Assembly (NCBI GenBank): GCA_003141245.1
Contig: PLLE01000043.1
Location: forward strand, 36,542 to 100,541
Reading direction: 5' to 3'
DNA length: 64,000 nucleotides
Source: Chloroflexota bacterium
GTDB lineage: Bacteria > Chloroflexota > Limnocylindria > Limnocylindrales > CSP1-4
Position 1 is the first letter of the stretch. Each line of letters opens with the position of its first letter. Below are positions 1,251 through 64,000 of the stretch, one piece after another. The notes beneath the pieces were generated by a model, which worked only from the letters and a program-made list of their open reading frames with translations, was not told the DNA's origin and searched no databases. The translations under genes and the position numbers were made by a program.

Positions 1251-1318
1251 GGCACGCGGTTCGGCGGCGCGGCGGGCGTCCGTCGGAGCCGCGTTCCTCG
1301 GGTCGGTCACGTCGCCTC

Positions 1319-6297: not shown

Positions 6298-6304
6298 GGC
6301 CGAC

Positions 6305-7327
6305 CTACTTCGGGATCGAGGAGACGAAGAGCGTCACCCCGAGCAATCCCGCCAGCGCGCTGACGATCCAGAACCGCATCGTCACCTTCTCCTCGTCCCA
6401 GCCGCCCAGCTCGAAGTGATGGTGAAGCGGGGCCATCCGGAAGACCCGCTTGCCGCGGAGCTTGTAGCTGCCGACCTGGATGATGTCGGACGCGGTCTCG
6501 ATCACGAAGATCAGGCCGATGAAGGGCAGGATCATCACCTGGCCGGTGATGAGCGCCACCACGGCCAGCATTCCGCCCAACGAGAGCGCGCCCGAGTCCC
6601 CCATGAAGACCTGGGCGGGGTGGACGTTGAACCACAGGAAGCCGACAATCGCGCCGACGACGATGGCGCACACCAGCGCCAGATTTGGCTGCCCGGGATC
6701 GTTGAGCAGGGCGATCATCAGGTAGCTGATGAAGGCAAAGGCGAGCGTGCCGCCGGCCAGCCCGTCGAGTCCGTCGGTCAGGTTCACGCCGTTGCTGCAG
6801 CCGACGATCGCCGCCACGGCGACGACGATGAAGAAGATCCCGCCCAGTTCCACGTTCCGATCGAGGAGCGGCACGAAGATCGTCGAGGTGAACTCGACGT
6901 CGCCGACGAACGGGACGCGGACGCCGTTGAAGCCGAAGTGGTTCTGGACGTAGATGGCCACGCCGATCGCAACGACCGTCTGCCAGACGATCTTGTGGCG
7001 GCCCCGCAGGCCGTATCCGGTTCGGGCGTTGAGGAAGTCGTCCAGCGCACCGAGAGCGCCGACGAGCGCCAGCACGGCGAGCGGCGAGTAGGTCGAGGCA
7101 TCCATGGCGTCGAACAGATATGCCAGCGACAGGATCACGGCTACGAGGAGCACTCCGCCCATCGTCGGCGTTCCCTGCTTGACCAGGTGCGTCCCCGGCC
7201 CGTCCTCGCGGATCTTCTTGCCCATGCCGATCCAATGAAGCAGCCGGATGTACGGCGGCATCAGGATCACGACGCAGGCGAATGCGAGCAGCAATCCCTG
7301 AATGAACACGACCCCGTGCTCGTTCAA
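6305..7327 (-). CDS. mraY: Phospho-N-acetylmuramoyl-pentapeptide transferase
   Basis: 340 aa membrane protein with MraY motifs (NGVNLTDGLDGLAGG, MGDSGALSLGG). Confidence 0.9.
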   Translation of the reverse strand: MNEHGVVFIQGLLLAFACVVILMPPYIRLLHWIGMGKKIREDGPGTHLVKQGTPTMGGVLLVAVILSLAYLFDAMDASTYSPLAVLALVGALGALDDFLNARTGYGLRGRHKIVWQTVVAIGVAIYVQNHFGFNGVRVPFVGDVEFTSTIFVPLLDRNVELGGIFFIVVAVAAIVGCSNGVNLTDGLDGLAGGTLAFAFISYLMIALLNDPGQPNLALVCAIVVGAIVGFLWFNVHPAQVFMGDSGALSLGGMLAVVALITGQVMILPFIGLIFVIETASDIIQVGSYKLRGKRVFRMAPLHHHFELGGWDEEKVTMRFWIVSALAGLLGVTLFVSSIPK

Positions 7328-10694: not shown

Positions 10695-10706
10695 CGGTCC
10701 GGCGTC

Positions 10707-11102
10707 CTAACGGGCCGGCAGGACGACCGGCGCGCGCAACTGAGTCAGGCCGTCGGCAATCGCCTGCCTGCGGATGGCGGATTGACGACCGACTCGGTCG
10801 ATGTCGGAGAGGATCTGCTGCCGCTGGTTCTGAAGCTGGATGTACTCGTCATTGAGCTGAGCCATGTCATAGCCGCTGGCCGAGATCCGAACCGTCTGGA
10901 CCAGCGAGAAGAAGCTCAGCAGGAATGCCACCACGATCGCGCCAATGATCATTCCGACCGCGCGCGGACGCCGGTTCGCGCGCATGGCGACGCGAGACCG
11001 GCGGCGCGGAAGCGCCGGCGCCTGGGGGCGGAGGAGGGGGGCCTCCAGGCGCCGGCGAGGAAGGAACGTGGAGCGCGGCCGAGCGCCCTCGTAGACGGCC
11101 AT
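10707..11102 (-). CDS. ftsL: FtsL-like cell division protein (start uncertain)
   Basis: Small protein with one TM helix (IIGAIVVAFLLSFFSLV) followed by a coiled-coil region, located between rsmH and ftsI. Confidence 0.55.
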   Translation of the reverse strand: MAVYEGARPRSTFLPRRRLEAPLLRPQAPALPRRRSRVAMRANRRPRAVGMIIGAIVVAFLLSFFSLVQTVRISASGYDMAQLNDEYIQLQNQRQQILSDIDRVGRQSAIRRQAIADGLTQLRAPVVLPAR

Positions 11103-11208
11103 CTAGTCGATTCCTCGATCGGGGTTCAAGCGCTGCCGGTGGCCATAGCTGCGGCGAAGGCTGGCCTGGTGACTCCTGGTCATCGGTTTCCACCTCCCCG
11201 GTCGGCGG

Positions 11209-12228
11209 TCATGCGGCCACTCGCTCCGCGCCCCGTAGTCGCGCACTTCGGGAACGCGGATTGGACTGGATCTCGGCCTCGCTCGGCGTGCGCGACTTGC
11301 CGAGCGATCGAAGACGCGGTAGTCGACCGCAGACGCAGACAGGGACCTCGGGCGGGCAGACGCAGCCCCGCTGCTCGGTCGCGATGAAGCGCTTGACGAT
11401 GCGGTCCTCCAGGGAGTGGTAGCTCAGGACCACGAGGCGGCCGCCAGGGCGAAGCAACACGAGCGACGCGGCAAGTCCGGCCTCGAGGGCGCCAAGTTCG
11501 TCGTTTACGGCGATCCGGAGGGCCTGGAAGACGCGCGTGGCGGGATGGATCCGTCGGGCCCGCGGCGCCGGGACGGATCGCACCACGAGCGCGGCGAGCT
11601 GCTCGGCCGTCTCAATCGGCGTGGCGCGGCGCGTCTCCACGATCGCCCGCGAGATGCGCCCGGCGAAGGGCTCTTCTCCGTAGCGGCGGAAGAGCGCGGT
11701 CAGTTCGGCGGCGGCCATGGTTGCGAGCAGGTCCGCGGCCGGGCGGCCGCGGCCGGTGTCGAAGCGCATGTCGAGACGCCCACCGGCGCGGAACCCGAAG
11801 CCTCGCTCCACGTCGCCGAGTTGGTAGCTGGACAGCCCGAGGTCCATGAACAGCCCGTCGACCGCCCCGAACCCGGCTTTGGGCGCGACTCGCTCCAGCT
11901 CGTGGAAGTTGGTCTGGCGCAGCACCGCCCGATCGCCGAAACGGGCCAGGCGGCGGCGCCCCCTGGCGATGGCCGCCCCGTCAGCGTCGAGTCCGAGGAG
12001 GCGGCCATCAGGGGCGCACGCCTCCAGGATCCGCTCGGCATGGCCGGCTCCACCGAGGGTGGCGTCGATCTGGAGGCTGTCAGGATGCGGTGCGAGTGTC
12101 TCCAAGACCTCGTCGGCCATCACCGGCAGGTGCCCTACCTCCCGTTCGGCGCCCCCCTCGGGAGAGCCGTCGACGGACTCGCCGTCACGGGCCGACCCGA
12201 GCGGATCCCGGAAGTTCATCTCGTTCAC
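11209..12228 (-). CDS. rsmH: 16S rRNA (cytosine1402-N4)-methyltransferase. The ORF may start internally near ...HLPVMADEVL.
   Basis: SAM-MTase motifs (DATLGGAGH, DLGLSSYQLGD) and position immediately downstream of mraZ. Confidence 0.85.
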   Translation of the reverse strand: MNEMNFRDPLGSARDGESVDGSPEGGAEREVGHLPVMADEVLETLAPHPDSLQIDATLGGAGHAERILEACAPDGRLLGLDADGAAIARGRRRLARFGDRAVLRQTNFHELERVAPKAGFGAVDGLFMDLGLSSYQLGDVERGFGFRAGGRLDMRFDTGRGRPAADLLATMAAAELTALFRRYGEEPFAGRISRAIVETRRATPIETAEQLAALVVRSVPAPRARRIHPATRVFQALRIAVNDELGALEAGLAASLVLLRPGGRLVVLSYHSLEDRIVKRFIATEQRGCVCPPEVPVCVCGRLPRLRSLGKSRTPSEAEIQSNPRSRSARLRGAERVAA

Positions 12229-12657
12229 CTAGATGCCGAGCCCGGTCAGATGGGAAGCGAGCGCATCGGCGGAATTGACCGCCTGCTGCGACTTCTCCCA
12301 TCGACCCGGTTCCCAGATTTCGACGTGATCCCGCGATCCCACCACGACGGCGTCCGATCCAACCCCGGACCAGTCGCGGATGGCCGCGGGCAGCAGGATC
12401 CGACCCTGCTGGTCGCTCTCGACCTCGAAAGCGCCCGAGAAGAGGAAGCGCGAGAAGGCTCTTGCCCTCTCGTCCGAGAGAGGCAGCTTCGCTACCTTCT
12501 CGGCGAGGTCCTCGAATGAGGCCCGCGGGAAGATGGCGGCGCAGCCGTCGACCCAGCGAGCCAGCACGGCGCCCTCGCCGAGAGGCGTACGGAACCGGAC
12601 CGGGATTGCAATCCGGCCCTTGGCGTCCACCGAGTGTCTGTATTCGCCGGTGAACAT
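12229..12657 (-). CDS. mraZ: Transcriptional regulator MraZ
   Basis: 142 aa with MFTGEY...DAKGRI and a second D..GR..LP repeat (duplicated MraZ/SpoVT-AbrB fold). It is the first gene of the dcw cluster. Confidence 0.9.
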   Translation of the reverse strand: MFTGEYRHSVDAKGRIAIPVRFRTPLGEGAVLARWVDGCAAIFPRASFEDLAEKVAKLPLSDERARAFSRFLFSGAFEVESDQQGRILLPAAIRDWSGVGSDAVVVGSRDHVEIWEPGRWEKSQQAVNSADALASHLTGLGI

Positions 12658-15389: not shown

Positions 15390-15770
15390 GTGTGGCGGCG
15401 AGCCGGCCTGTAAGCCGAGTTCTGTACCGCGACTCTCGTCGCGGCGACGATCATCCATCTCTGGCCGCCGGTCACCCGACGGCTCAAGCGGCCGACCCGA
15501 GGACTGGGCAGCGCGACCTCTTCCGTCCGAACGACCGGCTTCCCGAACGCTCGAACCGCGTCCTCCTATTTGGCCTTGCTCCGAGCAGAGTTTGCCGCGT
15601 TTCACCTACCGCTCTCGAGTTGCCCCGAGACCGGCTACGTCTCTGTGGCACTGGTCCTCGCCTCACGGCGGACGGGCATTACCCGCTACCCTGCGCTGAG
15701 GAGCTCGGACTTTCCTCGCATGCCGGCCGAAACCGAACACGCGCGACCGTCCGACCGGCTCGCCGATGTC
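15390..15770 (-). ncRNA. rnpB: RNase P RNA, bacterial type A
   Basis: The minus strand reads ...GAGGAAAGUCCGAGCUCC...GGGUAAUGCCC...AGAGAUGGAUGAUCGUCGCC...ACAGAACUCGGCUUACAGGCCGGCUCGCCGCC. The P4 strands (AGGAAAGUCCG / ACAGAAC.CGGCUUA) and the CUAGAUGGAUG-like motif match the RNase P consensus. The 5' GGCGAGCCGG and 3' GGCCGGCUCGCC can pair as P1. The six-frame track covers this locus with spurious ORFs (15392..16399 and others). Confidence 0.85.
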
Positions 15771-31981: not shown

Positions 31982-32413
31982 ATGTTTGAGAGCGATCGTA
32001 CCGTGATTGAGAACATCTCGGGGGTTGACTTGGTGATCGGCAGGTCAACCGTTCGACGCCGAATCCTCGCCCTCCTGATGGCCGGGCCGGAGCGGCGTTT
32101 GCACCTGCGCGAGATCCAGCGTCGTGCCACCACCAGCCCGGGCACCGCCAGCCGAGAACTTGGGCGACTCGTCGCCTCGGGCCTCGTCGAGCGCGAGGCC
32201 GAGGGGCACCAGGTCTACTTCCGCACCATCACCTCGCCCTATGCGACGATGATCCGGACCCTGCTCGGGGTCCCCGCCGCGCCGGCGTCGGCAGCCGAAC
32301 CGATCGCCCCGCCTCCTGCCGAACCCGAGACCGAGGGCGAGGGCGAGTCTCGTCAGTTGATGCTGTTCACCAGCGCGCCGCTACGCGACGATTGCCGCGA
32401 CCGATGGGCCTGA
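31982..32413 (+). CDS. Winged-helix transcriptional regulator (ArsR/MarR-like HTH) with a Pro/Ala-rich C-terminal tail
   Basis: ILALLMAGPERRLHLREIQRRATTSPGTASRELGRLVASGLVERE is an HTH plus wing; the stop overlaps the tag start region. Confidence 0.55.
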   Translation: MFESDRTVIENISGVDLVIGRSTVRRRILALLMAGPERRLHLREIQRRATTSPGTASRELGRLVASGLVEREAEGHQVYFRTITSPYATMIRTLLGVPAAPASAAEPIAPPPAEPETEGEGESRQLMLFTSAPLRDDCRDRWA

Positions 32414-32424
32414 CAAGACAGCCG

Positions 32425-33009
32425 ATGGAGCCAGGCGATCGGCCACGCTGCTGGTGGCCGAATGGGATCGCCGGGGTCGACTCGCTCATGGTCGCCTATC
32501 ACGATGAGGAGTGGGGCGAGCCCGTCTCGGACGACCGCACGCTGTTCGAGCGCCTTGCGCTGGAAGGCTTCCAGGCCGGACTCTCCTGGGCGACGATCCT
32601 GCGCAAGCGCGAGGCCTTCCGCCGAGCCTTCGTCGACTTCGAGCCGAAGGTCGTCGCCGGATTCGGCGATCTCGACCGTGAACGCCTCCTGGCGGACCCC
32701 GGAATCGTCCGCAATCGAGCCAAGATCGACGCCACGATCGGCAACGCCGCGCAGGTCCTGGCCCTCGCTGCCGAATGCGGCTCTTTCGCGGCCTATCTGG
32801 CGGCCAGGCTTCCTCGCCCCACCCCTACGTTGGCACACGGATCGGGCTGGGCGGACGTGCCGGCAACCGCGCCGGAATCCGACGCACTGTCGGCCGACTT
32901 GCGTCGTCTAGGCTTCCGATTCGTCGGCTCGACGATCGTCTACAGCTTCATGCAAAGCGTCGGCCTCGTGGACGACCATCTGCCCGGCTGCTACCGGCAT
33001 CGCGGCTGA
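32425..33009 (+). CDS. tag: DNA-3-methyladenine glycosylase I
   Basis: RCWWPNG...YHDEEWGEPVSDDRTLFERLALEGFQAGLSWATILRKREAFR matches Tag (Zn-binding C..H..H..C region and an HhH). Confidence 0.85.
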   Translation: MEPGDRPRCWWPNGIAGVDSLMVAYHDEEWGEPVSDDRTLFERLALEGFQAGLSWATILRKREAFRRAFVDFEPKVVAGFGDLDRERLLADPGIVRNRAKIDATIGNAAQVLALAAECGSFAAYLAARLPRPTPTLAHGSGWADVPATAPESDALSADLRRLGFRFVGSTIVYSFMQSVGLVDDHLPGCYRHRG

Positions 33010-33759
33010 CCGACGCCCGACCGACGCCCGACCGGCGCGTCGATTCCGTGTATGAGAGAAGTTCCCCAGGGAGGGTCGCTTGTCGCGAAGTGCGCCTAGG
33101 ACCCGCTTAGCAGCGTCTCGATGGACCGGGCGGGCATCCGGGTCCTGCGCGAGACGTAGTTGGCAATTCGGGCCGTGTCACAGCCGCATCTTGCGAGAGC
33201 GCGTCGATCCAGTCGCGGCCAGATGACCATCGCGCGAACGGCAGCGGGACACAGGTCCCGCGCGCGTGTGCTCATCGGGCGTGTCAGGGGCTCGACCGCC
33301 ATCGAGATCGCCATTGATCGCCTTTCCTCGCGGAGCCATGAATGGAGTTCGTCCGGTGCGTCCGCTCACCGGACTTTGGGAACATAATCCTAAGTAGAGC
33401 ACTCCAGTATTTCAATATCCTGAAACCGGCGGAAGGGTTGCGAAAGAAGTCGAACGAACTTCTGCACTGTCCCGTCTGAATGGCCGGCGATACGGCAACG
33501 CCTGGGCCGACAGGATGGCGCCGCTGCTCGATCGGCGGCGGGCAGCGCGAACTTCCGAGGGCCATCCGGGGGAGACGGCGGCGACGCTGCCAGTCAGCCT
33601 GCGCCGCCGCTGGCGGCAGCATTGCACAATTCTGAATCGCGTGCCTGCGGCGCAGGACGGCGCGAGCGGCGTGCCTGTCGGCCAGTTCCTCGAGCCTGCC
33701 GGCCAGCGCTGCTCGAACGTCTCCGGGGCGCTTCTCGGGCGCGGCACCATAATGCAACC

Positions 33760-34599
33760 ATGACTCGAGACCGTCGTGCGACCGAGCCTTCGTCTCGGAT
33801 GACGGACACCGTGCCGCTCTTCGGACTGCGGCGGGTCGAGCAGATCATGGGCACCGCGATCGGGTTCGACGTACGCGACCCCGACATTCCCGGGGAGGCG
33901 CTCGACCGGGCATTCGATTACTTGCGCCAGGTCGACCTGCGCTTCAGCACCTACAAGCCCGAGAGCGAAGTCAGCCGCCTGAGCCGCGGCGAGATTGTCT
34001 CCGAGGACGAATACAGTCCGGAGCTGCGCCAGGTCCTGGAGCTGTGTGAGGAAGTACGTCAGACAAGCGACGGCTACTTCGACATCCGAGCACATCGATC
34101 CGGAGGCGGGCTGGATCCGTCCGGCCTCGTCAAGGGTTGGTCGCTCGAGGGCGCAGGCCGAATCCTCGAGGCCGCGGGAGCCCGCAACTTCTGCATCAAC
34201 GGCGGCGGCGACATCGTCGTGCGCGGCGAGGCCGCGCCGGCCACGCCCTGGCGAATCGGCATCCGACACCCGCTCCAGGCCGACAAGGTGGCCACGGTCG
34301 TGAGCGTCCGCGACGGGGCGATCGCCACGTCGGGCGCGTACGAGCGAGGCGAGCACGTGCGCGACCCCTTCACCGGGAAGGCGCCCGCCGGCGTGCTCAG
34401 CGTCACGATCGTCGGGCCGAGCCTGACCTACGCCGATGCCTACGCCACGGCCGCCTTCGCGATGGGACCGACCGGCCTTGCCTGGGTGGCCCGACTCGCA
34501 GGCTACGCCGGCTGCGCGATCACCGTCGACCCGGACGGTTCGAATGGACGCCTGACGTGGACCCCCGGCTTCGAGCGCTGCTTCGCCGACCACCGCTGA
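33760..34599 (+). CDS. apbE: FAD:protein FMN transferase (ApbE family)
   Basis: IMGTAIGFDV near the N-terminus, and GAIATSGAYERGEH and DAYATAAF motifs of the ApbE flavin transferase family. Confidence 0.8.
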   Translation: MTRDRRATEPSSRMTDTVPLFGLRRVEQIMGTAIGFDVRDPDIPGEALDRAFDYLRQVDLRFSTYKPESEVSRLSRGEIVSEDEYSPELRQVLELCEEVRQTSDGYFDIRAHRSGGGLDPSGLVKGWSLEGAGRILEAAGARNFCINGGGDIVVRGEAAPATPWRIGIRHPLQADKVATVVSVRDGAIATSGAYERGEHVRDPFTGKAPAGVLSVTIVGPSLTYADAYATAAFAMGPTGLAWVARLAGYAGCAITVDPDGSNGRLTWTPGFERCFADHR

Positions 34600-34669: not shown

Positions 34670-36037
34670 CTACCAGAGGAACGGTCGAATGCCCAGCGCC
34701 GACTGGGCGGCGATGGCCGCCAGATAGCCAGCCAGGAGCAAGAGCGCCACGACCATGTGCAGCTGGATGTTGGTCCCCATCGACGCCATGAGGGCGTAGG
34801 GGTTGTCGTAGAAGAGGATCAGACCGCCGTGAACCCGGCGGGCCAGCGGGACCGCCAGCAGCACTATGAGGGTGGGCACCGGCAACAGCCCGACCGCCAC
34901 TCCCCCGCCGACCGCCACGAATGCCGCGGCGGCGGCAACGTCCCAGCCGCGGATCACCGCCGCCTGCGACCAGCGCACCGGCAGCGTTCGCTTGCCCGCC
35001 TTCGCGTCGCCGGTCCGGTCGGGGATCTCATTCACATACAGGATGAGCATCACCAGCAGGGCAACGGGGATCGAGGCGACGAAGGCTTCCCAGGAGAGCG
35101 AGCCACGGGTCTGGACGACGTAGGCGCCGAGAAGCATCACCGGCCCGAACCCGATCGCGGTGGCAATCTCGCCCAGACCGCGATAGACCAGCTTGAACGG
35201 CGGCATGGTGTAGGCCAGGCTGATGAAGAGGCCGACAGCCGAGATGACGACCAGCGCCACGGACCCGCGCATGGCGAAGAGGGCCAGCCCCAACGCCCCG
35301 GCGAGGAGGTAGCAGCCGAGCGCCAGCAGCGACATGCCGCGCATGGAGATGAGCCCGTTCTGGAGGACGCGCGAGCCGCCGCTGAACTTGGTCGGCGTGG
35401 CGTTGGCGTCGTCGGCGCCCTGCATCGTGTCGAAGACGTCGTTGGCGACGTTGAGCCCGAAATGGACGACGCTGGCGGCCACGACGGTGATCAGCGCAGT
35501 CGCCGGGTCGAAGAACCCGGCCCGCGCCGCCACGGCCAGTCCGAGCAACACCGGCGCGAAGGTCGCGCTCAGGAACGGCGCCCGGGTCGCGCGAAAGAGC
35601 AGCCAGCCGGTCGAGAGCCGCGGACGAACCCTCCTACCGCGCTCGGCGGAGAGCGCCTCGAAGTAGCGACGGGCCTTGGGCACGTCGCGTTCGTAGGCGG
35701 CCGGGAGCGGCAGGTCGCGCTCATCCCAGGCCCACGTTCGGGTCACGCGAACGGCCAGGCGGCCGTGGGACTCGGCCGAGGCCGCGCCCCACGCAGTCAC
35801 GTGGCTGCGCTCGTCGAAGCCGCCCTGCAGGCCGGGCCGGATGTGGCTGCCCGTGACCGCGACGCTGGCACCGGTCGGAATCGCGAACCCGGTCGGGGCC
35901 GCGAATCGGACGATCCCCTCCCCCGCCCGGACCTCCGCCGCGACGACGACGTTGACCGGGTATCCGTCCTCTCCGACCCAGGCCAGGACCGCCTGCGGGA
36001 AATCCGCCAGCTTCGCGAGATCGTCGGTCGCGCTCAC
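34670..36037 (-). CDS. Fusion protein: N-terminal PNPOx-like / FDOR-like split beta-barrel domain (~150 aa) fused to a MenA-type (1,4-dihydroxy-2-naphthoate polyprenyltransferase-like) UbiA-family membrane prenyltransferase
   Basis: N-terminal domain AVLAWVGEDGYPVNVVVAAEVRAGEGIVRFAAP... is a PNPOx-like fold. The C-terminal domain has about 8 TM helices, the first Asp-rich motif NDVFDTMQGADD, and the MenA-type second motif YVNEIPDRTGDAKAGKRTLPVRW. The start overlaps (ATGA) the stop of the upstream PNPOx gene. Confidence 0.75.
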   Translation of the reverse strand: MSATDDLAKLADFPQAVLAWVGEDGYPVNVVVAAEVRAGEGIVRFAAPTGFAIPTGASVAVTGSHIRPGLQGGFDERSHVTAWGAASAESHGRLAVRVTRTWAWDERDLPLPAAYERDVPKARRYFEALSAERGRRVRPRLSTGWLLFRATRAPFLSATFAPVLLGLAVAARAGFFDPATALITVVAASVVHFGLNVANDVFDTMQGADDANATPTKFSGGSRVLQNGLISMRGMSLLALGCYLLAGALGLALFAMRGSVALVVISAVGLFISLAYTMPPFKLVYRGLGEIATAIGFGPVMLLGAYVVQTRGSLSWEAFVASIPVALLVMLILYVNEIPDRTGDAKAGKRTLPVRWSQAAVIRGWDVAAAAAFVAVGGGVAVGLLPVPTLIVLLAVPLARRVHGGLILFYDNPYALMASMGTNIQLHMVVALLLLAGYLAAIAAQSALGIRPFLW

Positions 36038-36600
36038 CGGGCCGCCTCTGCCGTGTTCACCGCGGGTGCGCCGTCGGTTCGGCCGTCGGCCCAGTAGAGC
36101 GTCCGCTTGGGAGTGAGTTCGATCAGCGCCCGTTCAAAGATCAGCGGGAACCCCACGCGCGCCTTCAGCAGCGCCGGGATCGAGGGATCCTTGCGTCCGA
36201 TCTCGGGCAGCAGGCGCTCCCACCCGGAGTGAAGATCGTCCTCGATCACGCGCGCGTCGCCCTGGATCGTGGCTCGCTCGGTCCTGCCGGCCGACGTGGC
36301 CGGGTCGGTCACGGAGAGGCAGACCCTGGGGTTCGACTTGATGTGGCCGAGCTTTCGGCTGTCGAGCGCGCTCGAGGTCATGACAATGCGGTCGTCATCG
36401 AGGACCGGCACGAGCGGATAGGTCATCGGACGGCCGTCTTCCGCGACGACCGTCAACTCGCCGACGAGGGCAGCGTCCACCAGGCGCGCAACCGGATCAG
36501 GCAGCAAGGGCACGTTGATCTCCGAGACGGGACGACAATGGGAAGGTGGCCGCGCAGATTGTACGTGCCTAGCGGGCCCGGTCACGGTCCGGGGAGCCAC
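36034..36600 (-). CDS. Pyridoxamine 5'-phosphate oxidase-family (PPOX-class, possibly F420/FMN-dependent) split-barrel protein; the start may be internal (GTG at 36513)
   Basis: LVGELTVVAEDGRPMTYPLVPVLDDDRIVMTSSALDSRKLGHIKSNPRVCLSV is the typical PNPOx-like signature. Confidence 0.65.
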   Translation of the reverse strand: MAPRTVTGPARHVQSARPPSHCRPVSEINVPLLPDPVARLVDAALVGELTVVAEDGRPMTYPLVPVLDDDRIVMTSSALDSRKLGHIKSNPRVCLSVTDPATSAGRTERATIQGDARVIEDDLHSGWERLLPEIGRKDPSIPALLKARVGFPLIFERALIELTPKRTLYWADGRTDGAPAVNTAEAAR

Positions 36601-57514: not shown

Positions 57515-57785
57515 GTCCTCTGCGGGTTGGGACCGGTTTCGGTGAGACTAGGGCGGTTCGGTGTGGACAAAGTGTGGAAAACCTGGGATACATATGCACG
57601 AACGATCTCATGGAACGCCGGACCGTCGTGTGGGTCCGGACGAACCCAGAATGAGCTGTACGCCCAGATGCTAGGACCGGCGCAAGATAGCGCCAACATG
57701 AGACATCCACGGCCCTCGATCTGGCCGCTTCCATCTCTCGACCAAGGTGCCCGCCCGAAGGGCTACAGGTAGGCGAGGAACAAGC

Positions 57786-58949
57786 GTGAGGCTCACCAGG
57801 GCTCGGCAGGGGGCGGCCGAGCGTCTGCTTTGGTCCCGTGACAGCCGAGTCGTGGCGCGGCTGACCGAACATCTGCCCGAGGCTCGTGTGATCGAGCTCG
57901 CGGATTCGGGCTGGTGTGTCATCGCCTCCGCGGAGAAACTGACGGAGGACCTCGTCGCCCGCGTCGCGGACGGCACGGGCTGCGGCATGGCCGACGTCGA
58001 TCCATCTCTGCCACTCGACGAACGCTATGTCGTGGCTCTCGGTCATGCCGTCCAGGTTTCCGGGCTCGGAGACCGGATCGGTATGGGCGGGACTCCGGAA
58101 ATCGCGAGCCGCAAGGTGATGTCCTTGTTCTTCGTCTGCAAGGAGCACCACGTCGAGTTCCAACCCATCGTGGATCTGCAGACGATGAAAGCCCACGAGT
58201 GGGAGTGTCTGTTCCGTCTGAGCCCCGGCATGGGAACGGAAACGATCGGCAGCGTCGTCGAAGCCGCGCTCGCGGCGAAGCGCCCGGTGGAATTCGACAC
58301 GTTCGTAGTCGACGCCACACTGACGCGCATCGCACAGGTGGTTGAGGCGGGCCCCGCGGGCCGGCGAACGCGGTTCGGCGTCAACTTCTTGCCGGCGAGT
58401 CTGCTGGCGCCGACCTTCGAGGCCGAGGCCCTGGCCGAAATGGTTCGCAGGGCAGGCCTGTCGCCTCGACAGATCATCGTCGAATGCACCGAGCAGCAAG
58501 CCATCCATGACGTGCCGCGGCTCAAGAAGCAGGTCAAAGCTCTTCGCCACCTTGGGTTCGGTTTCGCCATCGACGACGCTGGCGCGGGATACGCAAGCTT
58601 CACCGTCATCGCCGCCCTGGAGCCCTCGATCATCAAGATCGACCGCGAGATCGTCGCCGGGATCGGCAACAAGGATGCCGAGGCCAAAAAGGCCCTCGTC
58701 GAGGCTTTCGTCTCGTTCAGCCGCCGCATCGACGCGCAGATCGTCGCCGAGGGGATCGAGAATCGCCGCGATCTGCTGGCCCTCCAGGATCGCGAGGTCG
58801 ACTTCGGTCAGGGCTACCTACTCGGCCGATCGGCCGTGACGCCGCTGCAGCCGCGACGAATCCGGAACGTCGACGACCTGACGCTGGTGATCTCGAGCGT
58901 CGGCGCCTGGGACGGGGGCGTCTCTCCGAGCGTCGCCTCCAGCGAGTAG
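57786..58949 (+). CDS. EAL-domain protein (c-di-GMP phosphodiesterase-type) with an uncharacterised ~130-aa N-terminal region; GTG start
   Basis: EAL (as ECLFRL), QIIVECTE, FAIDDAGAGYASF and EGIENRRDLLALQDREVDFGQGYLLG blocks. Confidence 0.75.
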   Translation: MRLTRARQGAAERLLWSRDSRVVARLTEHLPEARVIELADSGWCVIASAEKLTEDLVARVADGTGCGMADVDPSLPLDERYVVALGHAVQVSGLGDRIGMGGTPEIASRKVMSLFFVCKEHHVEFQPIVDLQTMKAHEWECLFRLSPGMGTETIGSVVEAALAAKRPVEFDTFVVDATLTRIAQVVEAGPAGRRTRFGVNFLPASLLAPTFEAEALAEMVRRAGLSPRQIIVECTEQQAIHDVPRLKKQVKALRHLGFGFAIDDAGAGYASFTVIAALEPSIIKIDREIVAGIGNKDAEAKKALVEAFVSFSRRIDAQIVAEGIENRRDLLALQDREVDFGQGYLLGRSAVTPLQPRRIRNVDDLTLVISSVGAWDGGVSPSVASSE

Positions 58950-59020: not shown

Positions 59021-59461
59021 ATGACCGCCCTCGATTCGATCGCACCTGCCTCTCCCACCCTATCGGCTGCCGCATGCCGATTCCTCGAGGCGCCGCGCTT
59101 CGCGGTCGTCGCGACCCTCAACCCGGACGGCAGCCCGCTCCAGGCCGTGATCTGGTACCGCCTCGAGGACGACACGATCGTCTTCAACAGCCGCCTGGGT
59201 CGCCACTGGCCAACCAACATCCAGCGCGACCGGCATGTCTCGATCACCGTGGTCGACGGCTATGACTACATCGAGATGCGCGGCGAGGTCGAGATCGACG
59301 AGGATCCGCAGCTCGGTCAGGCCGTCATCGCGGGCTTGACCCGACGTTACGAGTCGAACGGCGAGGCCGCCGAGGCTCAGATCGCGGGCTTTGCCAGGGA
59401 GCGACGCGTGACCTTCAAGCTGCGTCCGAGCAGAATCTTCGAGCGTCTGTCGAGCAACTGA
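59021..59461 (+). CDS. PPOX-class F420-dependent enzyme family protein (pyridoxamine 5'-phosphate oxidase-like split barrel)
   Basis: FAVVATLNPDGSPLQAVIWYRLEDDTIVFNS... is a PNPOx-like fold of the kind common to actinobacterial F420 users. It lies directly upstream of fgd. Confidence 0.65.
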   Translation: MTALDSIAPASPTLSAAACRFLEAPRFAVVATLNPDGSPLQAVIWYRLEDDTIVFNSRLGRHWPTNIQRDRHVSITVVDGYDYIEMRGEVEIDEDPQLGQAVIAGLTRRYESNGEAAEAQIAGFARERRVTFKLRPSRIFERLSSN

Positions 59462-59499
59462 CGGAGAAGCCCGGCAAGCGGTCCACCGGAGGAGACGAG

Positions 59500-60489
59500 A
59501 TGGCCCAGGCGAAGATCGGCTACGCGGCAATGCTCGAGCAGTTCGGGCCGGCCGAAATACTGGATCTCTGCGCCCGGGCCGAGTCTGCCGGCTTTTCGGG
59601 CGTCATGGCCGCCGATCACTTCCAGCCGTGGGTCCCGCGCCAGGGCCAGGCCTCGTTCGTGTGGGAGGTCCTGGCGGTCGCCGGGGCACGCACCCGCGGC
59701 GACCTGGGACCCGGCGTGGCTTGCCCGTCGTTCCGGATGCATCCCGCCATCGTCGCCCAGGCCGCGGCGACGCTCGAGGTCATGTATCCGGGGCGAACGT
59801 GGCTGGGTCTTGGCTCCGGTGAGGCGCTCAACGAGCACGTCGTGGCCGGCTACTGGCCGGAGGTGCCGGAGCGCATCAACCGCATGTTCGAGGCGATCGA
59901 GATCATCGCCAAGCTCTTCAGCGGCAAAGAGGTCAAGCACGACGGCCGCTTCTTCAAGATGGAGACCTGCCGCCTTTGGACACTGCCGGAGAAGGCGCCC
60001 CCGATCTACATCGCCACGGCCGGCCCGGTGACCGCCAAGCGAACGGGTAAGTTCGCCGACGGGATCATCACCGTCGGCGCGCCGGAGGAGAAGATCGACG
60101 GCATCTTCGCAAAGTTCGCCGAAGGAGCGCGCGAGGGCGGCAAGGATCCGGCGACGATGCCGAAGATCCTGCAGCTCCACCTGTCCTGGGCCGAAACGGA
60201 TGCCGAGGCGGTCGCGAACGCGATCTCCGAATGGCCCAACGGCGGCATGCGCTTCCCCAAGCAGGACATCAGGTCGCCCAAGGACTTCGAGCAGGTGGCG
60301 GCACTGGTCCGGCCCGAGGACTTCACCGGTCGGATGCTCATGTCGGCCGACCCCGAGGTCCACCGCCGCGAGATCCAGAAGTTCCTCGACCTCGGCTTCG
60401 ACCAGATCTACCTGCACAACGTCGGCCGAAACCAGGCGGCCTGGCTCGACCTCTTCGGCCGCGAGGTGCTGCCGAAGCTGACGGCCTGA
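59500..60489 (+). CDS. fgd: F420-dependent glucose-6-phosphate dehydrogenase (LLM-class luciferase-like oxidoreductase)
   Basis: Near-collinear match to mycobacterial Fgd1: KIGY.A..EQFGP.E...L...AE..GF......DHFQPW, YPGR..LG.G.GEALNE, PIYIA..GP..AK..G...DG.I, and a C-terminal F.ELF.R..LP.L. Confidence 0.8.
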   Translation: MAQAKIGYAAMLEQFGPAEILDLCARAESAGFSGVMAADHFQPWVPRQGQASFVWEVLAVAGARTRGDLGPGVACPSFRMHPAIVAQAAATLEVMYPGRTWLGLGSGEALNEHVVAGYWPEVPERINRMFEAIEIIAKLFSGKEVKHDGRFFKMETCRLWTLPEKAPPIYIATAGPVTAKRTGKFADGIITVGAPEEKIDGIFAKFAEGAREGGKDPATMPKILQLHLSWAETDAEAVANAISEWPNGGMRFPKQDIRSPKDFEQVAALVRPEDFTGRMLMSADPEVHRREIQKFLDLGFDQIYLHNVGRNQAAWLDLFGREVLPKLTA

Positions 60490-60628
60490 GAGGCGGCCCT
60501 CGAGCGCGACCCGGAGCCGGTCATCGTGCGCCCAGACGAGCACCGCGTGAGAGACGCCTCGAAGCGACACCATCGTCGCCCGGCGCTACGCTTTCGGGAA
60601 CAGGTTTGGCCGCCAACTGGGAGGAGCG

Positions 60629-61579
60629 ATGCGGGTCGTTTGTCTGGCCGGTGGCGTCGGAGGCGCGAAGCTGGCCGACGGGCTCCAGCGCGCGCTCGAA
60701 CCCGGTGAGCTGACCGTCGTCGTCAACACCGGCGACGACTTTGAGCGGCACTCCCTGCTGGTCTGCCCCGACCAGGACACCGTGCTCTACACCCTGGCGG
60801 GGATCGCCGAGCCGGCTCAGGGCTGGGGAATCGCCGGCGAGACGTGGCAGGTCATGAGCCAGCTCGCTCGCCTCGGCGAAGAGACCTGGTTCCGCCTGGG
60901 CGACAAGGACGTCGCCACACACCTCTTCCGCACTGAGCGACTCCGCGGCGGCAAACGCCTGAGCGCCGTGGCGCTGGAGTTGTGCGCCGCGCTGGACGTG
61001 CCGTCGCGGATCCTGCCGATGGCCGACGAGCCCGTTCGAACGCGGGTCCGAACCGACGACGGCTGGCTCGACTTCCAGGACTACTTCGTCCGCCTGCGCC
61101 AGGCCCCCGAGGTACGCGAGGTCCGTTTCGAGGGCGCCGATCTCTCCTCGATCACCCCGGAGGTTGAGGAGGCGCTGGCGGGAGCCGAAGCCATCGTCGT
61201 GGCGCCATCGAATCCGATCGTCTCGATCGGTCCGATCCTGGCCGTTCCCGGGATCGACGAGGCGATAGCCGCCGCCAGGGCGCGCGGCGTTCGGAGCGTC
61301 GGCGTCTCCGGCATCGTCGGCGGGAAGGCGCTGCGCGGCCCGGCCGATCGAATGATGGCCAGCCTTGGCGACGAGCCGACGGCGCTCGGGGTCGCCCGCC
61401 GATATGCATCGATGGGGCTGCTGGACGTCTTCGTCCTCGACCGGCTCGACGAATCGCTCGCGAGAGACGTCATCGCGCTGGGGCTGGAGGTCGTCGTGAC
61501 CGAGACGGTGATGACCGACGTCGGCGCGCGAGTCCAGCTCGCGCGGGACGTCCTGGCCGCGACCCTGCCTCCCGCATGA
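60629..61579 (+). CDS. cofD: 2-phospho-L-lactate (or EPPG) transferase CofD/FbiA
   Basis: MRVVCLAGGVGGAKLADGL, NTGDDFERHSL, PSNPIVSIGPIL; GGGAGG-like SD upstream. Confidence 0.85.
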   Translation: MRVVCLAGGVGGAKLADGLQRALEPGELTVVVNTGDDFERHSLLVCPDQDTVLYTLAGIAEPAQGWGIAGETWQVMSQLARLGEETWFRLGDKDVATHLFRTERLRGGKRLSAVALELCAALDVPSRILPMADEPVRTRVRTDDGWLDFQDYFVRLRQAPEVREVRFEGADLSSITPEVEEALAGAEAIVVAPSNPIVSIGPILAVPGIDEAIAAARARGVRSVGVSGIVGGKALRGPADRMMASLGDEPTALGVARRYASMGLLDVFVLDRLDESLARDVIALGLEVVVTETVMTDVGARVQLARDVLAATLPPA

Positions 61580-62223
61580 GCGGAGCCGACCTCTCCCGGA
61601 TCGTGGCGATCGTGCCCGTGCGATCGCTGAGCGGAGCCAAGTCGCGCCTCGGCGAGCCGCTCGACCCCGAGGAGCGGGCCGAGCTGATCCTGGCCCTCCT
61701 GCGCCGGACCGTGTCCGCGGCCCTGGCAGCGCGGCGGCTTGACGGTGTGGCCGTCGTCTCCCAGGACGCGGAGCTGCTGACCCAGGCCCGCGCCATGGGC
61801 GCGGCATCGTTCCTGCAGGAGAGCGACGGGCTCAACGAGGGGCTCTCCGAGACGCGAGATTCGGCCTGTACCGAGGCCACCGCCGTGCTGGTGCTGCCGG
61901 CGGACCTGCCTGCGGTCAGCGCCGAGGCGATCGAACGGCTCGTCGAGGCGGGCGAGGAAACGGCCCGGCGCGAGCCCGAGCGGCCGGTCGTCGTGCTGGT
62001 CCCCGATCGCCATGGCACTGGTACGAATGCGTTGCTCGTGGCGCCGCCGAATGCGATCGAGTTCCGCTTCGGCGAGGGGAGTCGGGCGGCGCACGCGGCC
62101 GAGGCGATCGCTGCCGGAGCCACGTACGTAGAGTTGGACGGGCCGCTGGCGTTCGATCTCGACACGCCCGAAGACCTGCGTGAGGCCGACATGGGCGGTC
62201 TCGACCACGAGGCGGGCCGGTGA
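61576..62223 (+). CDS. cofC: 2-phospho-L-lactate guanylyltransferase CofC/FbiD
   Basis: IVAIVPVRSLSGAKSRL...VLPADLPAVS, an MobA-like nucleotidyltransferase fold; 4-nt overlap with cofD. Confidence 0.8.
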   Translation: MSGADLSRIVAIVPVRSLSGAKSRLGEPLDPEERAELILALLRRTVSAALAARRLDGVAVVSQDAELLTQARAMGAASFLQESDGLNEGLSETRDSACTEATAVLVLPADLPAVSAEAIERLVEAGEETARREPERPVVVLVPDRHGTGTNALLVAPPNAIEFRFGEGSRAAHAAEAIAAGATYVELDGPLAFDLDTPEDLREADMGGLDHEAGR

Positions 62224-63071
62224 GCACGGACGGCAGGAGCGCGCGCGAGGCACCCGGTTCGGCCGGGAGCTCATCGAGGGCACCGCTGCCCGCGGAGCCT
62301 CTGCCGGGCGGTCGCCTCGAGGTCTTCGCACTCGACGGGATCCCGGAGATCCGGCCCGGCGACGACCTGTCGGCGCTGCTCGTCTCGGCCCTCCGGGCGG
62401 CGTCCGAGGTGCTGCCTCTGCGCACGGACGACGTCCTGGTCGTCACCCAGAAGATCGTCTCGAAGGCCGAGGGGGCGATCGTCGACCTGACGGCCGTCGA
62501 GCCGCGTCCCGAGGCCATCGAGTTCGCCCAACGCTGGGACCGCGACGCCCGCCAGCTCGAGGTCGTCCTGCGCCAGGCCCGCCGCGTCGTCCGGTGGGAG
62601 CGCGGCGTCCTCATCACCGAAACGCCCCACGGCTTCGTCTGCGCAAACGGCGGCGTCGACGCCTCCAACGTAGGGCCGCAGAGCGGCAACATCGTGACCC
62701 TCCTGCCGAAGGACCCCGACGCCTCCGCCGCTCGAATCCGCGCCGCCGTCGCCGAGGCGCTCGGTGTGGATGTGCCGGTCATCATCTCGGACAGCTTCGG
62801 TCGCCCGTGGCGATGGGGAATCATGGACATCGCGATCGGCGTAAGCGGCATGAAGCCGCTCGACGACATGCGCGGCACGCCGGACGCCGACGGGCGCGTC
62901 ATGCACAGCACAGTCCGCGCCACTGCCGACGAGATCGCCACGGCCGCCGAACTGGCCCTCGGCAAGACCGCACGCCGGCCGGCCGCCATCGTCCGGGGCG
63001 CCAACCCCAGCCGCGGCGAGGGCCGGATCGCCGACGTACTGATGCCGAGCGAGTTCGACCTCTTCCGATGA
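62220..63071 (+). CDS. cofE: F420-0:gamma-glutamyl ligase CofE, single domain with no fused nitroreductase-like FbiB C-domain
   Basis: VVTQKIVSKAEG...ETPHGFVCANGGVDASNV...ISDSFGRPWRWG. It is 283 aa, and the next gene starts 4 nt before its stop. Confidence 0.8.
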   Translation: MSTDGRSAREAPGSAGSSSRAPLPAEPLPGGRLEVFALDGIPEIRPGDDLSALLVSALRAASEVLPLRTDDVLVVTQKIVSKAEGAIVDLTAVEPRPEAIEFAQRWDRDARQLEVVLRQARRVVRWERGVLITETPHGFVCANGGVDASNVGPQSGNIVTLLPKDPDASAARIRAAVAEALGVDVPVIISDSFGRPWRWGIMDIAIGVSGMKPLDDMRGTPDADGRVMHSTVRATADEIATAAELALGKTARRPAAIVRGANPSRGEGRIADVLMPSEFDLFR

Positions 63072-64000
63072 CCGGCCCGACCGTGTCGGCAGGATCGGGT
63101 GGATCGGCCGGGTCGGTAGGCGCGCGCTTCTCCGTCCCCTCCCCGATCGACCTGCGACTTACCCTCGCTCCGCTCCGTCACGGCCGCGACGACCCGACGA
63201 TCCGGTTCGCGAGCGACGGCGTGTGGCTGGCTCGGGCCACGGCCGAAGGACCAGCCACTCTGCGCCTGGCGGCCGCCAGGGTGGCAGAGATGGATCCCGA
63301 GGCTGGCGTCATCGTTGCCGAGGCGTGGGGCCCGGGTGCACGGCTCGCGCTGGAAGCGGCGCCCGGCCTGGCCGGCCTGCTCGACGACCCCGGTCCTCTG
63401 ATCCCGCATCATCCCCTGATCCGCGAGCTCCAGCGCCGGTTCGCCGGCCTGCGCCTGCCACGATCAGGGCAGCTGCTGCCGGCCCTGATACCGGCGGTGA
63501 CCGAGCAGAAGGTGACCGCCACCGAAGCTCACGGCGCATACGCGGGCCTCGTCCGGCGACTCGGCCGACCCGCACCCGGCCCCGTCCCGCTGCTCCTCCC
63601 GCCGGGCGCCGAGATACTGGCGTCCCTACCCTACTTCGAGTTCCATCCGCTGGGGCTGGAGCGACGTCGGGCGGAGTTGCTCCGTCGCATCGGCCGCAGC
63701 GAATCGCAGATAGAGGCGTGGATGGCGCTCCCGCCGGACCAGGCGCGCGCACGACTCCAGGCGATACCGGGAATCGGGCCGTGGACGGCGGCAGAGGCCA
63801 CCCGTGCCGCCTTCGGCGATCCGGACGCGGTCAGCGTCGGGGACGCTCATCTCCCCGATCTCGTCTCGTGGGCGCTCGCCGGCGAGGCCCGCGCCGACGA
63901 TGCGCGGATGCTCGAGCTCCTCGCCCCGTACGCGGGCCAGCGCGCCAGGGTCGTCCGCCTTCTGGAAGCTTCGGGGATACAGATCCCGCGGTTCGGCCCG
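63068..64000 (+). CDS. HhH-GPD superfamily DNA glycosylase (AlkA-like), 3' end outside the window
   Basis: AlkA-like N-terminal domain, then the helix-hairpin-helix IPGIGPWTAAEA and a catalytic Asp region (VGDAHL). Confidence 0.6.
   Translation, partial: MTGPTVSAGSGGSAGSVGARFSVPSPIDLRLTLAPLRHGRDDPTIRFASDGVWLARATAEGPATLRLAAARVAEMDPEAGVIVAEAWGPGARLALEAAPGLAGLLDDPGPLIPHHPLIRELQRRFAGLRLPRSGQLLPALIPAVTEQKVTATEAHGAYAGLVRRLGRPAPGPVPLLLPPGAEILASLPYFEFHPLGLERRRAELLRRIGRSESQIEAWMALPPDQARARLQAIPGIGPWTAAEATRAAFGDPDAVSVGDAHLPDLVSWALAGEARADDARMLELLAPYAGQRARVVRLLEASGIQIPRFGP

What the first reader, a model, noticed from the sequence alone, without database searches (positions are those of the whole stretch)
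59021..63071. Compact F420 locus: PPOX-class enzyme, fgd, cofD, cofC and a single-domain cofE
The window carries a clear Fgd1 orthologue followed by cofD, cofC and cofE with 4-nt overlaps. CofE is only 283 aa and the next gene starts 4 nt before its stop. It therefore lacks the C-terminal nitroreductase-like domain of actinobacterial FbiB, which reduces dehydro-F420-0. This points to an archaeal or Chloroflexi-style pathway using 2-phospho-L-lactate or 3-phosphoglycerate rather than PEP, or to a separately encoded reductase. It provides the cofactor context for the many PNPOx/FDOR-like genes in the window.
Basis: partly seen in the sequence, partly recalled or inferred. Interest (0 to 1): 0.55.

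Follow-up and report, generated by a model that had tools for sequence, protein, structure and literature searches.

The report
Ordinary Chloroflexota F420 biosynthesis operon
This is a normal cluster of genes for making and recharging the redox cofactor F420 in an uncultured soil bacterium of the Chloroflexota (class Limnocylindria); its short, single-domain CofE is what all 200 of its closest relatives checked here and the studied Chloroflexi species also have.

Summary
The genes are real and mostly as described. On the + strand lie a PPOX-class enzyme (59021-59461), an Fgd-type dehydrogenase (59500-60489), cofD (60629-61579), cofC (61576-62223) and a single-domain cofE (62220-63071).

Corrections to the finding:
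- Only cofD/cofC, cofC/cofE and cofE/next gene overlap by 4 nt. fgd and cofD are 139 nt apart.
- The 'Fgd1 orthologue' is 55.5% identical to the Thermomicrobium roseum Fgd but only 37% to actinobacterial Fgd1. It fails NCBI's Fgd equivalog cut-off.
- The window holds two PNPOx genes, not many.

The host is a Chloroflexota MAG of class Limnocylindria. All 120 best CofE homologues and all 81 CofE copies in related loci are single-domain. No nitroreductase sequence exists in any frame after cofE; the next gene is a DNA glycosylase.

The missing FbiB domain does not argue against PEP. T. roseum uses PEP plus a stand-alone nitroreductase (FbiE), and there cofE and FbiE lie 245 kb apart. CofC carries the 2-PL/PEP-type residues, so 3PG-F420 is unlikely.

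About 78 kb around cofE contains no FbiE and no cofG/cofH. The rest of the genome could not be searched. Verdict: ordinary, a new member of a known kind.

The parts
59021..59461 (+). PPOX-class (split beta-barrel, FDOR-B-like) putative F420H2-dependent oxidoreductase, 146 aa
   Evidence: Pfam PNPOx_N E=2.7e-15. TIGR03618 scores 77.1 bits, just under the 79.05 cut-off. It is 45% identical to the T. roseum PPOX gene that sits directly upstream of cofE. A homologue lies upstream on the same strand in 22 of 27 Limnocylindria-type loci. JGI names it 'PPOX class probable F420-dependent enzyme'.
59500..60489 (+). [quoted passage not shown]
   Evidence: TIGR03557 scores 296.7 bits (cut-off 210.4). The TIGR03554 Fgd equivalog scores 216 bits, below its 420 cut-off. 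The protein scores 429 bits and is 55.5% identical to T. roseum Fgd (PDB 9HAV-9HAY), and 37% identical to Rhodococcus Fgd1 (5LXE) (PMC12750041 section 2.5). His40, Trp44 and Glu108 are conserved. A strong Shine-Dalgarno sequence GGAGGA precedes the ATG.
60490..60628 (+). 139-nt spacer between fgd and cofD, with Shine-Dalgarno GGGAGGAG before the cofD ATG
   Evidence: Sequence read. No Rfam family. No sigma-70-like promoter or terminator.
60629..61579 (+). cofD / fbiA (transferase that joins the activated C3 acid to FO), 316 aa
   Evidence: TIGR01819 scores 314.4 bits (cut-off 257.45). It is 54% identical to T. roseum CofD.
61576..62223 (+). cofC / fbiD (guanylyltransferase), 215 aa, 2-PL/PEP-type active site
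   Evidence: TIGR03552 scores 156 bits (cut-off 105). Alignments to 6BWG and 7P97 give D110/D194/D196 (Mg ligands), L86, L90, T148, T150, G166 and S169. It is 36% identical to T. roseum CofC. It overlaps cofD by ATGA.
62220..63071 (+). cofE, single-domain F420-0:gamma-glutamyl ligase, 283 aa, with an N-terminal extension of about 30 aa of low complexity
   Evidence: TIGR01916 scores 251.6 bits (cut-off 180.65). The FbiB model NF009810 is matched only at positions 11-243 of 449. It aligns end to end with A. fulgidus CofE 2PHN. No canonical start codon lies between 62220 and the conserved domain. It is 54% identical to T. roseum CofE.
63068..64000 (+). Downstream neighbour, not part of the F420 system: HhH-type (AlkA-like) DNA glycosylase. 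It runs off the window (321 aa in the full contig).
   Evidence: Full ORF in L001 10849-11814. Weak matches to AlkA and 3-methyladenine glycosylases (NF007641 34 bits; PDB 2H56/1DIZ, E about 2e-3 to 4e-3). JGI names it '3-methyladenine DNA glycosylase/8-oxoguanine DNA glycosylase'. No nitroreductase signal.

Best explanation
The locus is the lineage-typical F420 'tail' biosynthesis operon of a Limnocylindria (Chloroflexota) chromosome. cofD, cofC and cofE are probably translationally coupled (4-nt overlaps). They are preceded by a Chloroflexi-type Fgd, which regenerates F420H2 from glucose-6-phosphate, and by a PPOX-class F420H2-using reductase.

Proposed mechanism:
1. CofC activates a C3 acid with GTP.
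2. CofD transfers it to FO.
3. The single-domain CofE adds the gamma-glutamyl tail.

Shown: gene identities, single-domain architecture, host lineage, conserved gene order, and a 2-PL/PEP-type CofC pocket.

Inferred: as in Thermomicrobium roseum, the C3 acid is most likely PEP. The resulting dehydro-F420-0 would then be reduced by a stand-alone FbiE-type nitroreductase encoded elsewhere in the genome, as are the FO-synthase genes cofG/cofH. Neither lies within about 78 kb of cofE.
For: - Family assignments pass curated cut-offs.
- The exact proteins are on a 123-kb metagenome contig and a 354-kb NCBI contig.
- The nearest genomes are Limnocylindrales/Limnocylindria MAGs, with CofE 62-87% identical.
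- The order PNPOx, LLM, cofD, cofC, cofE recurs in 27 Limnocylindria-type loci: cofD in 26, an LLM in 23, PNPOx in 22.
- All 120 best CofE homologues are 251-289 aa with PF01996 only. All 81 CofE copies in the loci end within 32 aa of the alignment.
- Identity to the T. roseum counterparts: Fgd 55.5%, CofD 54%, CofE 54%, PPOX 45%, CofC 36%.
- T. roseum has the same dispersed logic: PPOX-cofE-OsmC at 543 kb, cofD-cofC-DMT-nitroreductase at 786-789.6 kb, and fgd at 667.5 kb on NC_011961.1.
- The literature reports PEP to dehydro-F420 with stand-alone FbiE in T. roseum (PMC8498797 section 27; PMC8764529 introduction).
- CofC diagnostic residues are L86/L90/T148/G166.
- FbiE-like stand-alone nitroreductases (TIGR03553 135-150 bits) lie next to cofE or cofD in other Chloroflexota loci: L055, L071, L079, L046.
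Against: - No FbiE-type or other nitroreductase, and no radical-SAM FO synthase, is encoded between window positions -5304 and +73071.
- None was found within +/-10 kb of cofE in about 40 Limnocylindria-type loci.
- None of the 240 best FbiE homologues listed sits on a contig whose length matches a cofE-bearing contig of this lineage (354,202; 1,891,453; 1,347,117 bp ...). This is weak evidence, because only the top 120 of each search are shown.
- CofC enzymes cannot be assigned to PEP or 2-PL from sequence or even from in vitro assays (PMC8764529). The PEP step is therefore inference by analogy with one cultured Chloroflexi species.
Confidence: 0.6

Rival explanations
1. Archaeal-type route. 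CofC activates free 2-phospho-L-lactate, so F420-0 forms directly, no dehydro-F420 reductase is needed, and none exists in the genome.
For: - CofC has the 2-PL/PEP-type pocket, and all tested CofC homologues turn over 2-PL best in vitro (PMC8764529 section 6).
- CofE's closest solved relative is archaeal CofE.
- No FbiE lies in 78 kb around cofE or near cofE in about 40 related loci.
Against: - No bacterial source of 2-PL is known (my own knowledge).
- The only studied Chloroflexi uses PEP plus FbiE (PMC8498797 section 27).
- Unlinked FbiE is normal. It lies 245 kb from cofE in T. roseum, so local absence says little.
Confidence: 0.22
2. PEP route with a non-homologous reductase. The PPOX-class enzyme encoded at the head of the cluster (59021-59461), or another F420/FMN enzyme, reduces dehydro-F420-0 in place of FbiE.
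For: - A PPOX gene is linked to cofE in both T. roseum and Limnocylindria.
- A different PPOX subfamily (TIGR03668) is fused to FbiE-like domains in L046 and in proteins P0370, P0382, P0384, P0402, P0405, P0427 and P0430. This hints at a functional tie between PPOX enzymes and this step.
Against: - T. roseum has both the PPOX and a validated FbiE, so the PPOX is not a replacement there.
- The PPOX is missing from 5 of 27 related loci, including the close relative L005.
- The fused PPOX belongs to another subfamily than the window's.
- There is no biochemical precedent.
Confidence: 0.07
3. 3PG-F420 route, as in Mycetohabitans: CofC activates 3-phospho-D-glycerate.
For: It would also need no reductase.
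Against: All four positions tied to 3-PG use (M91, C95, H145, S162) are in the opposite state here: L86, L90, T148, G166. The register was verified on both 6BWG and 7P97 (PMC8764529).
Confidence: 0.03
4. Assembly or frameshift artefact: cofE was originally a two-domain fbiB, and the nitroreductase part is hidden after a frameshift near 63060.
For: None found.
Against: - tblastn and an FbiE HMM on all six frames give no hit in the window.
- The downstream frame encodes a 321-aa glycosylase conserved at 78-79% identity after cofE in L002 and L003.
- The same 283-aa CofE is present in three independent contigs.
- All relatives are single-domain.
Confidence: 0.01

Closest known systems
Thermomicrobium roseum F420 system (cofD-cofC-DMT-NTR/FbiE; PPOX-cofE-OsmC; separate fgd) on megaplasmid NC_011961.1
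   Same: - Single-domain CofE (54% identical), CofD (54%), CofC (36%, same L/T/G pocket), Fgd (55.5%).
- A PPOX gene linked to cofE (45% identical).
- Same phylum-level lineage in the literature's usage (Chloroflexi).
   Different: - In the window cofD, cofC and cofE are contiguous and fgd is adjacent. In T. roseum they form three separate loci.
- T. roseum has the FbiE nitroreductase two genes after cofC. The window has none within 78 kb.
Actinobacterial FbiA/FbiD/FbiB pathway (Mycobacterium)
   Same: Homologous CofD/FbiA, CofC/FbiD and the CofE-like N-terminal domain. The same PEP-binding residues are present in CofC (L92, T148, G163, S166, D116/D188/D190 equivalents).
   Different: - No fused C-terminal nitroreductase domain.
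- Fgd is only 37% identical to Fgd1 and falls below the equivalog cut-off.
Archaeal CofC/CofD/CofE (2-PL route)
   Same: Stand-alone CofE that aligns end to end with A. fulgidus CofE (2PHN). Separate CofC and CofD.
   Different: Bacterial host. Associated Fgd and PPOX enzymes that are typical of aerobic soil bacteria. The substrate is not determined.
Mycetohabitans 3PG-F420 system
   Same: Stand-alone CofC, CofD and CofE in a non-actinobacterial host.
   Different: CofC lacks the 3-PG signature residues (M91/C95/H145/S162).

Membership tests
CofE (F420-0:gamma-glutamyl ligase, TIGR01916 / PF01996) | Score above the curated equivalog cut-off, and full-length match to solved CofE | tested here: met
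   251.6 bits against 180.65. PF01996 E=4.8e-68. Query residues 32-283 align to residues 5-245 of 2PHN.
FbiB (bifunctional CofE + dehydro-F420 reductase, NF009810 / TIGR03553) | C-terminal nitroreductase-fold domain fused to the ligase domain | tested here: not met
   The match covers only model positions 11-243 of 449, at 225 bits against a cut-off of 304. The stop codon is at 63069-63071. No FbiE-HMM or tblastn hit in any frame.
CofC / FbiD (TIGR03552) | Score above cut-off; Mg-binding Asp triad and carboxylate-binding Ser | tested here: met
   156 bits against 105. D110, D194, D196 and S169 align with Mtb FbiD D116, D188, D190 and S166.
3-PG-activating CofC (Mycetohabitans type) | Ser at S162, with His145, Met91 and Cys95 | tested here: not met
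   G166, T148, L86 and L90 at the aligned positions. The register was checked on nine residues of 7P97. Criteria from PMC8764529.
CofD / FbiA (TIGR01819) | Score above the equivalog cut-off | tested here: met
   314.4 bits against 257.45. 54% identical to T. roseum CofD.
Fgd, actinobacterial equivalog (TIGR03554) | Score above the equivalog cut-off of 420 bits | tested here: not met
   216.2 bits. 37% identity to Rhodococcus Fgd1.
F420-dependent G6PD family (TIGR03557), Chloroflexi-type Fgd | Subfamily cut-off; close similarity to the T. roseum Fgd (reported to oxidise G6P, structure solved); catalytic His/Trp/Glu | tested here: met
   296.7 bits against 210.4. 429 bits and 55.5% identity to 9HAV (PMC12750041). 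H40, W44 and E108 are conserved. Of the Rhodococcus phosphate ligands K197/K258/R282 (residue roles recalled from memory), K254 and R278 are kept and the K197 position is Ala, as in T. roseum. Substrate specificity itself was not tested.
PPOX-class F420-dependent oxidoreductase (TIGR03618) | Score above the subfamily cut-off | tested here: inconclusive
   77.1 bits against 79.05. Pfam PNPOx_N passes at 57.2 against 28.1. Use of F420 rather than FMN cannot be decided from sequence.
Stand-alone FbiE (dehydro-F420 reductase) as part of this system | An FbiB-C-terminal-like nitroreductase gene in the same genome | not testable with these tools
   Absent from window -5304..+73071. The rest of the MAG could not be read. 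Homologue searches could not be assigned to this lineage.
FO synthase (CofG/CofH or FbiC) as part of this system | Radical-SAM FO synthase genes in the same genome | not testable with these tools
   None in the 78 kb read. Putative cofG/cofH-like ORFs (judged from motifs, not HMM-scanned) are linked to cofE only in non-Limnocylindria loci, for example L050, L056 and L057.

The most novel reading that the evidence does not exclude
Limnocylindria, an abundant soil and freshwater class, may lack any FbiE-type nitroreductase. It would then make F420 either from free 2-phospho-L-lactate, a route so far attributed to archaea, or by reducing dehydro-F420 with a non-homologous enzyme such as the PPOX encoded at the head of the operon.
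Probability: 0.12. Interest if true: 0.5.

Novelty: new member of a known kind. Interest (0 to 1): 0.12.

Why it matters
It matters little beyond annotation. It shows that an abundant uncultured Chloroflexota class carries a compact Fgd plus cofD-cofC-cofE cluster and is probably an F420 producer. That fits the published picture that aerobic soil Chloroflexi commonly make F420. The only open point of some interest is where, or whether, this lineage encodes the dehydro-F420 reductase. The answer would tell whether the PEP route is general in Chloroflexota.

Tried and rejected
1. Frameshifted or fused nitroreductase after cofE. Rejected by tblastn with FbiE seeds and by an FbiE HMM on six-frame translations. 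The first HMM run was contaminated with unrelated proteins stored in the same file and is discarded.

2. Finding FbiE in this lineage. I ran a profile of three cofE-linked nitroreductases and the T. roseum FbiE against the 5.8-billion-protein set. Only the best 120 hits of each are listed, and they are of Ktedonobacteria or Thermomicrobiales type. Four long-contig hits were looked up. They belong to one clade that shares the same local gene order; L088 and L089 have about 60% GC. They cannot be tied to Limnocylindria. This line led nowhere.

3. Literature on F420 in Limnocylindria/Ellin6529: none found. The primary paper on Thermomicrobia nitroreductases (PMC7267189) is not held. Its conclusions are cited through PMC8498797 and PMC8764529.

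4. Regulatory RNA or promoter in the fgd-cofD spacer: no Rfam family and no consensus promoter or terminator.

5. 3PG-F420 route: rejected on the CofC residues.

6. Single-linkage clustering of neighbourhood ORFs produced one giant spurious high-GC cluster. Only the small clean clusters were used.

Full report
**Observation.** The + strand between 59021 and 63071 carries five ORFs exactly where the finding places them. Third-position GC is 0.83-0.89 for the fgd, cofD and cofE reading frames, which is typical of real genes in this 69% GC window. Their family assignments are:
- 59021-59461: PNPOx_N, E=2.7e-15. TIGR03618 scores 77.1 bits, just under the 79.05 cut-off.
- 59500-60489: luciferase-like. 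TIGR03557 'F420 G6PD family' scores 296.7 bits (cut-off 210.4).
- 60629-61579: CofD. TIGR01819 scores 314.4 bits (cut-off 257.45).
- 61576-62223: CofC. TIGR03552 scores 156 bits (cut-off 105).
- 62220-63071: CofE. TIGR01916 scores 251.6 bits (cut-off 180.65).

The junction sequences show ATGA, GTGA and ATGA overlaps at cofD/cofC, cofC/cofE and cofE/next gene. A 139-nt spacer separates fgd from cofD, and good Shine-Dalgarno sequences precede fgd and cofD. The '4-nt overlaps' therefore hold for three junctions and not for fgd/cofD.

**CofE architecture.**
- The 283-aa CofE matches only positions 11-243 of the 449-position FbiB model.
- It aligns to the very end of the solved single-domain CofE of Archaeoglobus fulgidus (2PHN, query 32-283 to chain 5-245).
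- The ORF that starts at 63068 runs 321 codons in the full contig. It resembles AlkA-type HhH DNA glycosylases (NF007641 34 bits; PDB 2H56/1DIZ) and is so named by JGI.
- It follows cofE at 78-79% identity in the two closest related genomes.
- tblastn with FbiE-like nitroreductases, and an FbiE HMM run without filters on every stop-to-stop segment of at least 50 aa in all six frames, find nothing in the window.

**Where the window comes from.** The exact CofE is on a 123-kb ENA metagenome contig and on an NCBI contig of 354 kb. The closest genomes among 185,579 species representatives are MAGs named Candidatus Limnocylindrales/Limnocylindria or 'Chloroflexota', with CofE 62-87% identical.

Walking the contig with four look-ups gave called genes and Pfam hits from window position -5304 to +73071. 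A Pfam scan filled the remaining gap at 32.6-36.3 kb. The region is ordinary chromosome:
- the dcw cell-wall and division cluster;
- isocitrate dehydrogenase, succinate dehydrogenase and succinyl-CoA synthetase;
- ParAB, pyruvate dehydrogenase E1, and RNase P RNA.

It contains no nitroreductase-family gene and no radical-SAM FO synthase. It contains two PNPOx_N genes, not many.

**The 'Fgd'.** The LLM protein fails the actinobacterial Fgd equivalog (216 bits against 420) and is 37% identical to Rhodococcus Fgd1. [quoted passage not shown]

The catalytic His, Trp and Glu are conserved. At the Rhodococcus phosphate-binding positions it shares the T. roseum pattern: Ala at the K197 position, with Lys and Arg kept at the K258 and R282 positions. 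The roles of the Rhodococcus residues are from my memory. 'fgd' is thus a fair call, but as the Chloroflexi type, not as an Fgd1 orthologue. PGAP names both this cluster and the T. roseum gene only 'TIGR03557 family'.

**How common the arrangement is.**
- All 120 best CofE homologues in the 5.8-billion-protein set are 251-289 aa and carry PF01996 alone.
- All 81 CofE copies in the window and the 80 related loci end within 32 residues of the alignment end.
- Among 27 Limnocylindria-type loci with enough upstream sequence, 26 have cofD, 23 an LLM, 22 a PNPOx homologue and at least 23 cofC upstream of cofE on the same strand. Only six have the T. roseum-type Fgd.
- In more distant relatives (Acidobacteriota, Dehalococcoidia and others) cofE is instead linked to an Fno-like ORF and putative cofG/cofH-like ORFs. 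These identities were judged from sequence motifs and were not HMM-scanned.

The window's cluster is the normal form for its lineage. Its proteins are already annotated with these functions in JGI data.

**What the missing domain means.** According to the review PMC8498797 (sections 26, 27, 32) and PMC8764529 (introduction), fusion of CofE to the nitroreductase is characteristic of Actinobacteria (PMC8498797 also notes predicted fused FbiB homologues in Lokiarchaeota). T. roseum (Chloroflexi) uses PEP, forms dehydro-F420 and reduces it with an independent FbiB-C-terminal homologue, FbiE.

I located these genes on the T. roseum megaplasmid NC_011961.1:
- cofD-cofC-DMT transporter-nitroreductase at 786.4-789.6 kb;
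- PPOX-cofE-OsmC at 542.6-544.3 kb;
- fgd alone at 667.5 kb.

In the system the literature reports as experimentally studied, cofE and the reductase are therefore about 245 kb apart, so absence of a reductase from the 78 kb around this cofE is uninformative. The window's proteins are 36-55.5% identical to the T. roseum set. The PPOX-cofE linkage is shared.

**Substrate class of CofC.** I used the alignments to Mtb FbiD (6BWG) and Mycetohabitans CofC (7P97). The register was checked on eight and nine published residues respectively. The window's CofC has:
- the Mg-binding aspartates (D110, D194, D196);
- the carboxylate-binding S169;
- at the four positions that govern 3-PG use (M91, C95, H145, S162), the residues L86, L90, T148 and G166 (PMC8764529).

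This is the 2-PL/PEP state, so the 3-PG reading is unlikely. The same paper states that CofC assays cannot discriminate between 2-PL and PEP as the in vivo substrate, so sequence cannot decide between those two.

**Search for the reductase.** FbiE-like stand-alone nitroreductases (TIGR03553, 135-150 bits) lie beside cofE or cofD in four other Chloroflexota-type loci: L055, L071, L079 and L046. In L046 the domain is fused to a TIGR03668 PPOX domain. None lies within 10 kb of cofE in about 40 Limnocylindria-type loci.

Two whole-database searches with FbiE queries returned only Ktedonobacteria- and Thermomicrobiales-like top hits. Four long-contig hits that I looked up form one clade with the same local gene order; L088 and L089 have about 60% GC. 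I could not assign them to this class. No listed hit lies on a contig of the lengths that carry this lineage's cofE, which is weak evidence at best. Whether this genome encodes FbiE remains untested.

**Conclusion.** The single-domain CofE reflects the host (Chloroflexota) and is the rule among its relatives. It does not argue against PEP. 3-PG is disfavoured. The 'separate reductase' option is the published Chloroflexi solution and the most likely one here (about 0.6), followed by a 2-PL route (about 0.2).

This is a new member of a known kind, of low interest. The one non-trivial possibility left open is that Limnocylindria lacks FbiE altogether.

Noticed in passing
window 15395-15762 (- strand): Bacterial RNase P RNA class A. 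Full-length Rfam match: 193.6 bits against a gathering score of 100.
   Followed up: no
L046 19530-20600; proteins P0370, P0382, P0384, P0402, P0405, P0427, P0430: Recurrent fusion of a PPOX-class domain to an FbiE-like nitroreductase domain (357-375 aa). In L046 the PPOX domain is TIGR03668 (Rv0121 family). The listed proteins carry PF01243 plus PF00881, and their subfamily was not checked. They are 65-66% identical to T. roseum FbiE. The fusion suggests a functional tie between that PPOX family and dehydro-F420 reduction.
   Followed up: partly
window 59021-59461 and L086 6548-6961 (T. roseum): A TIGR03618-like PPOX gene is linked to cofE in both T. roseum (directly upstream, followed by OsmC) and Limnocylindria (45% identity). 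OsmC also recurs a few kb downstream of cofE in the Limnocylindria loci.
   Followed up: partly
window 36034-36513 (- strand): The second and only other PNPOx_N gene in the window: TIGR03618 45 bits, below cut-off. It sits next to a UbiA prenyltransferase (34670-36037, -) and an ApbE flavin transferase (33424-34599, +).
   Followed up: no
window 62220-62310: CofE has a low-complexity N-terminal extension of about 30 aa (MSTDGRSAREAPGSAGSSSRAPLPAEPLPGG) that most homologues (256 aa) lack. No other canonical start codon lies before the conserved domain, so the extension seems to be translated.
   Followed up: partly
window 63068-64000 and 32392-33009: There are two DNA alkylation-repair glycosylases in the window: an AlkA-like HhH protein overlapping the cofE stop, and a Tag (Adenine_glyco, E=7.6e-67). 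The AlkA-like gene has alternative starts in public gene calls: 321 aa or 247 aa.
   Followed up: partly
L001 12270-13163 (about 420 nt beyond the window end): A second F420-type LLM (TIGR03560, 275.8 bits against a cut-off of 231.4), followed further downstream by a pyridine-nucleotide disulfide oxidoreductase and OsmC. The LLM and the oxidoreductase are conserved downstream of cofE in most Limnocylindria loci and OsmC in several.
   Followed up: partly
L079 (CAYXXK010000031.1): A MAG contig labelled 'uncultured Klebsiella sp.' carries cofE, an FbiE-like nitroreductase, cofD, cofC, a Chloroflexi-type Fgd (61% identical) and a PNPOx-like gene. The taxon label is probably wrong, or the contig was mis-binned.
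   Followed up: no
window 105-12657 (- strand) and beyond the window start: Complete dcw cluster on the - strand, from mraZ at about 12657 down to ddl at about 105, in the order mraZ, rsmH, PBP, murE, mraY, murD, ftsW, murG, murB, ddl. ftsQ, ftsA and ftsZ follow just beyond the window start. This confirms that the window is chromosomal.
   Followed up: no
window 57747-58949 (+ strand): An EAL-domain (c-di-GMP phosphodiesterase) gene lies directly upstream of the PPOX gene on the same strand. It is found at the same relative position in several related loci at 47-70% identity.
   Followed up: no
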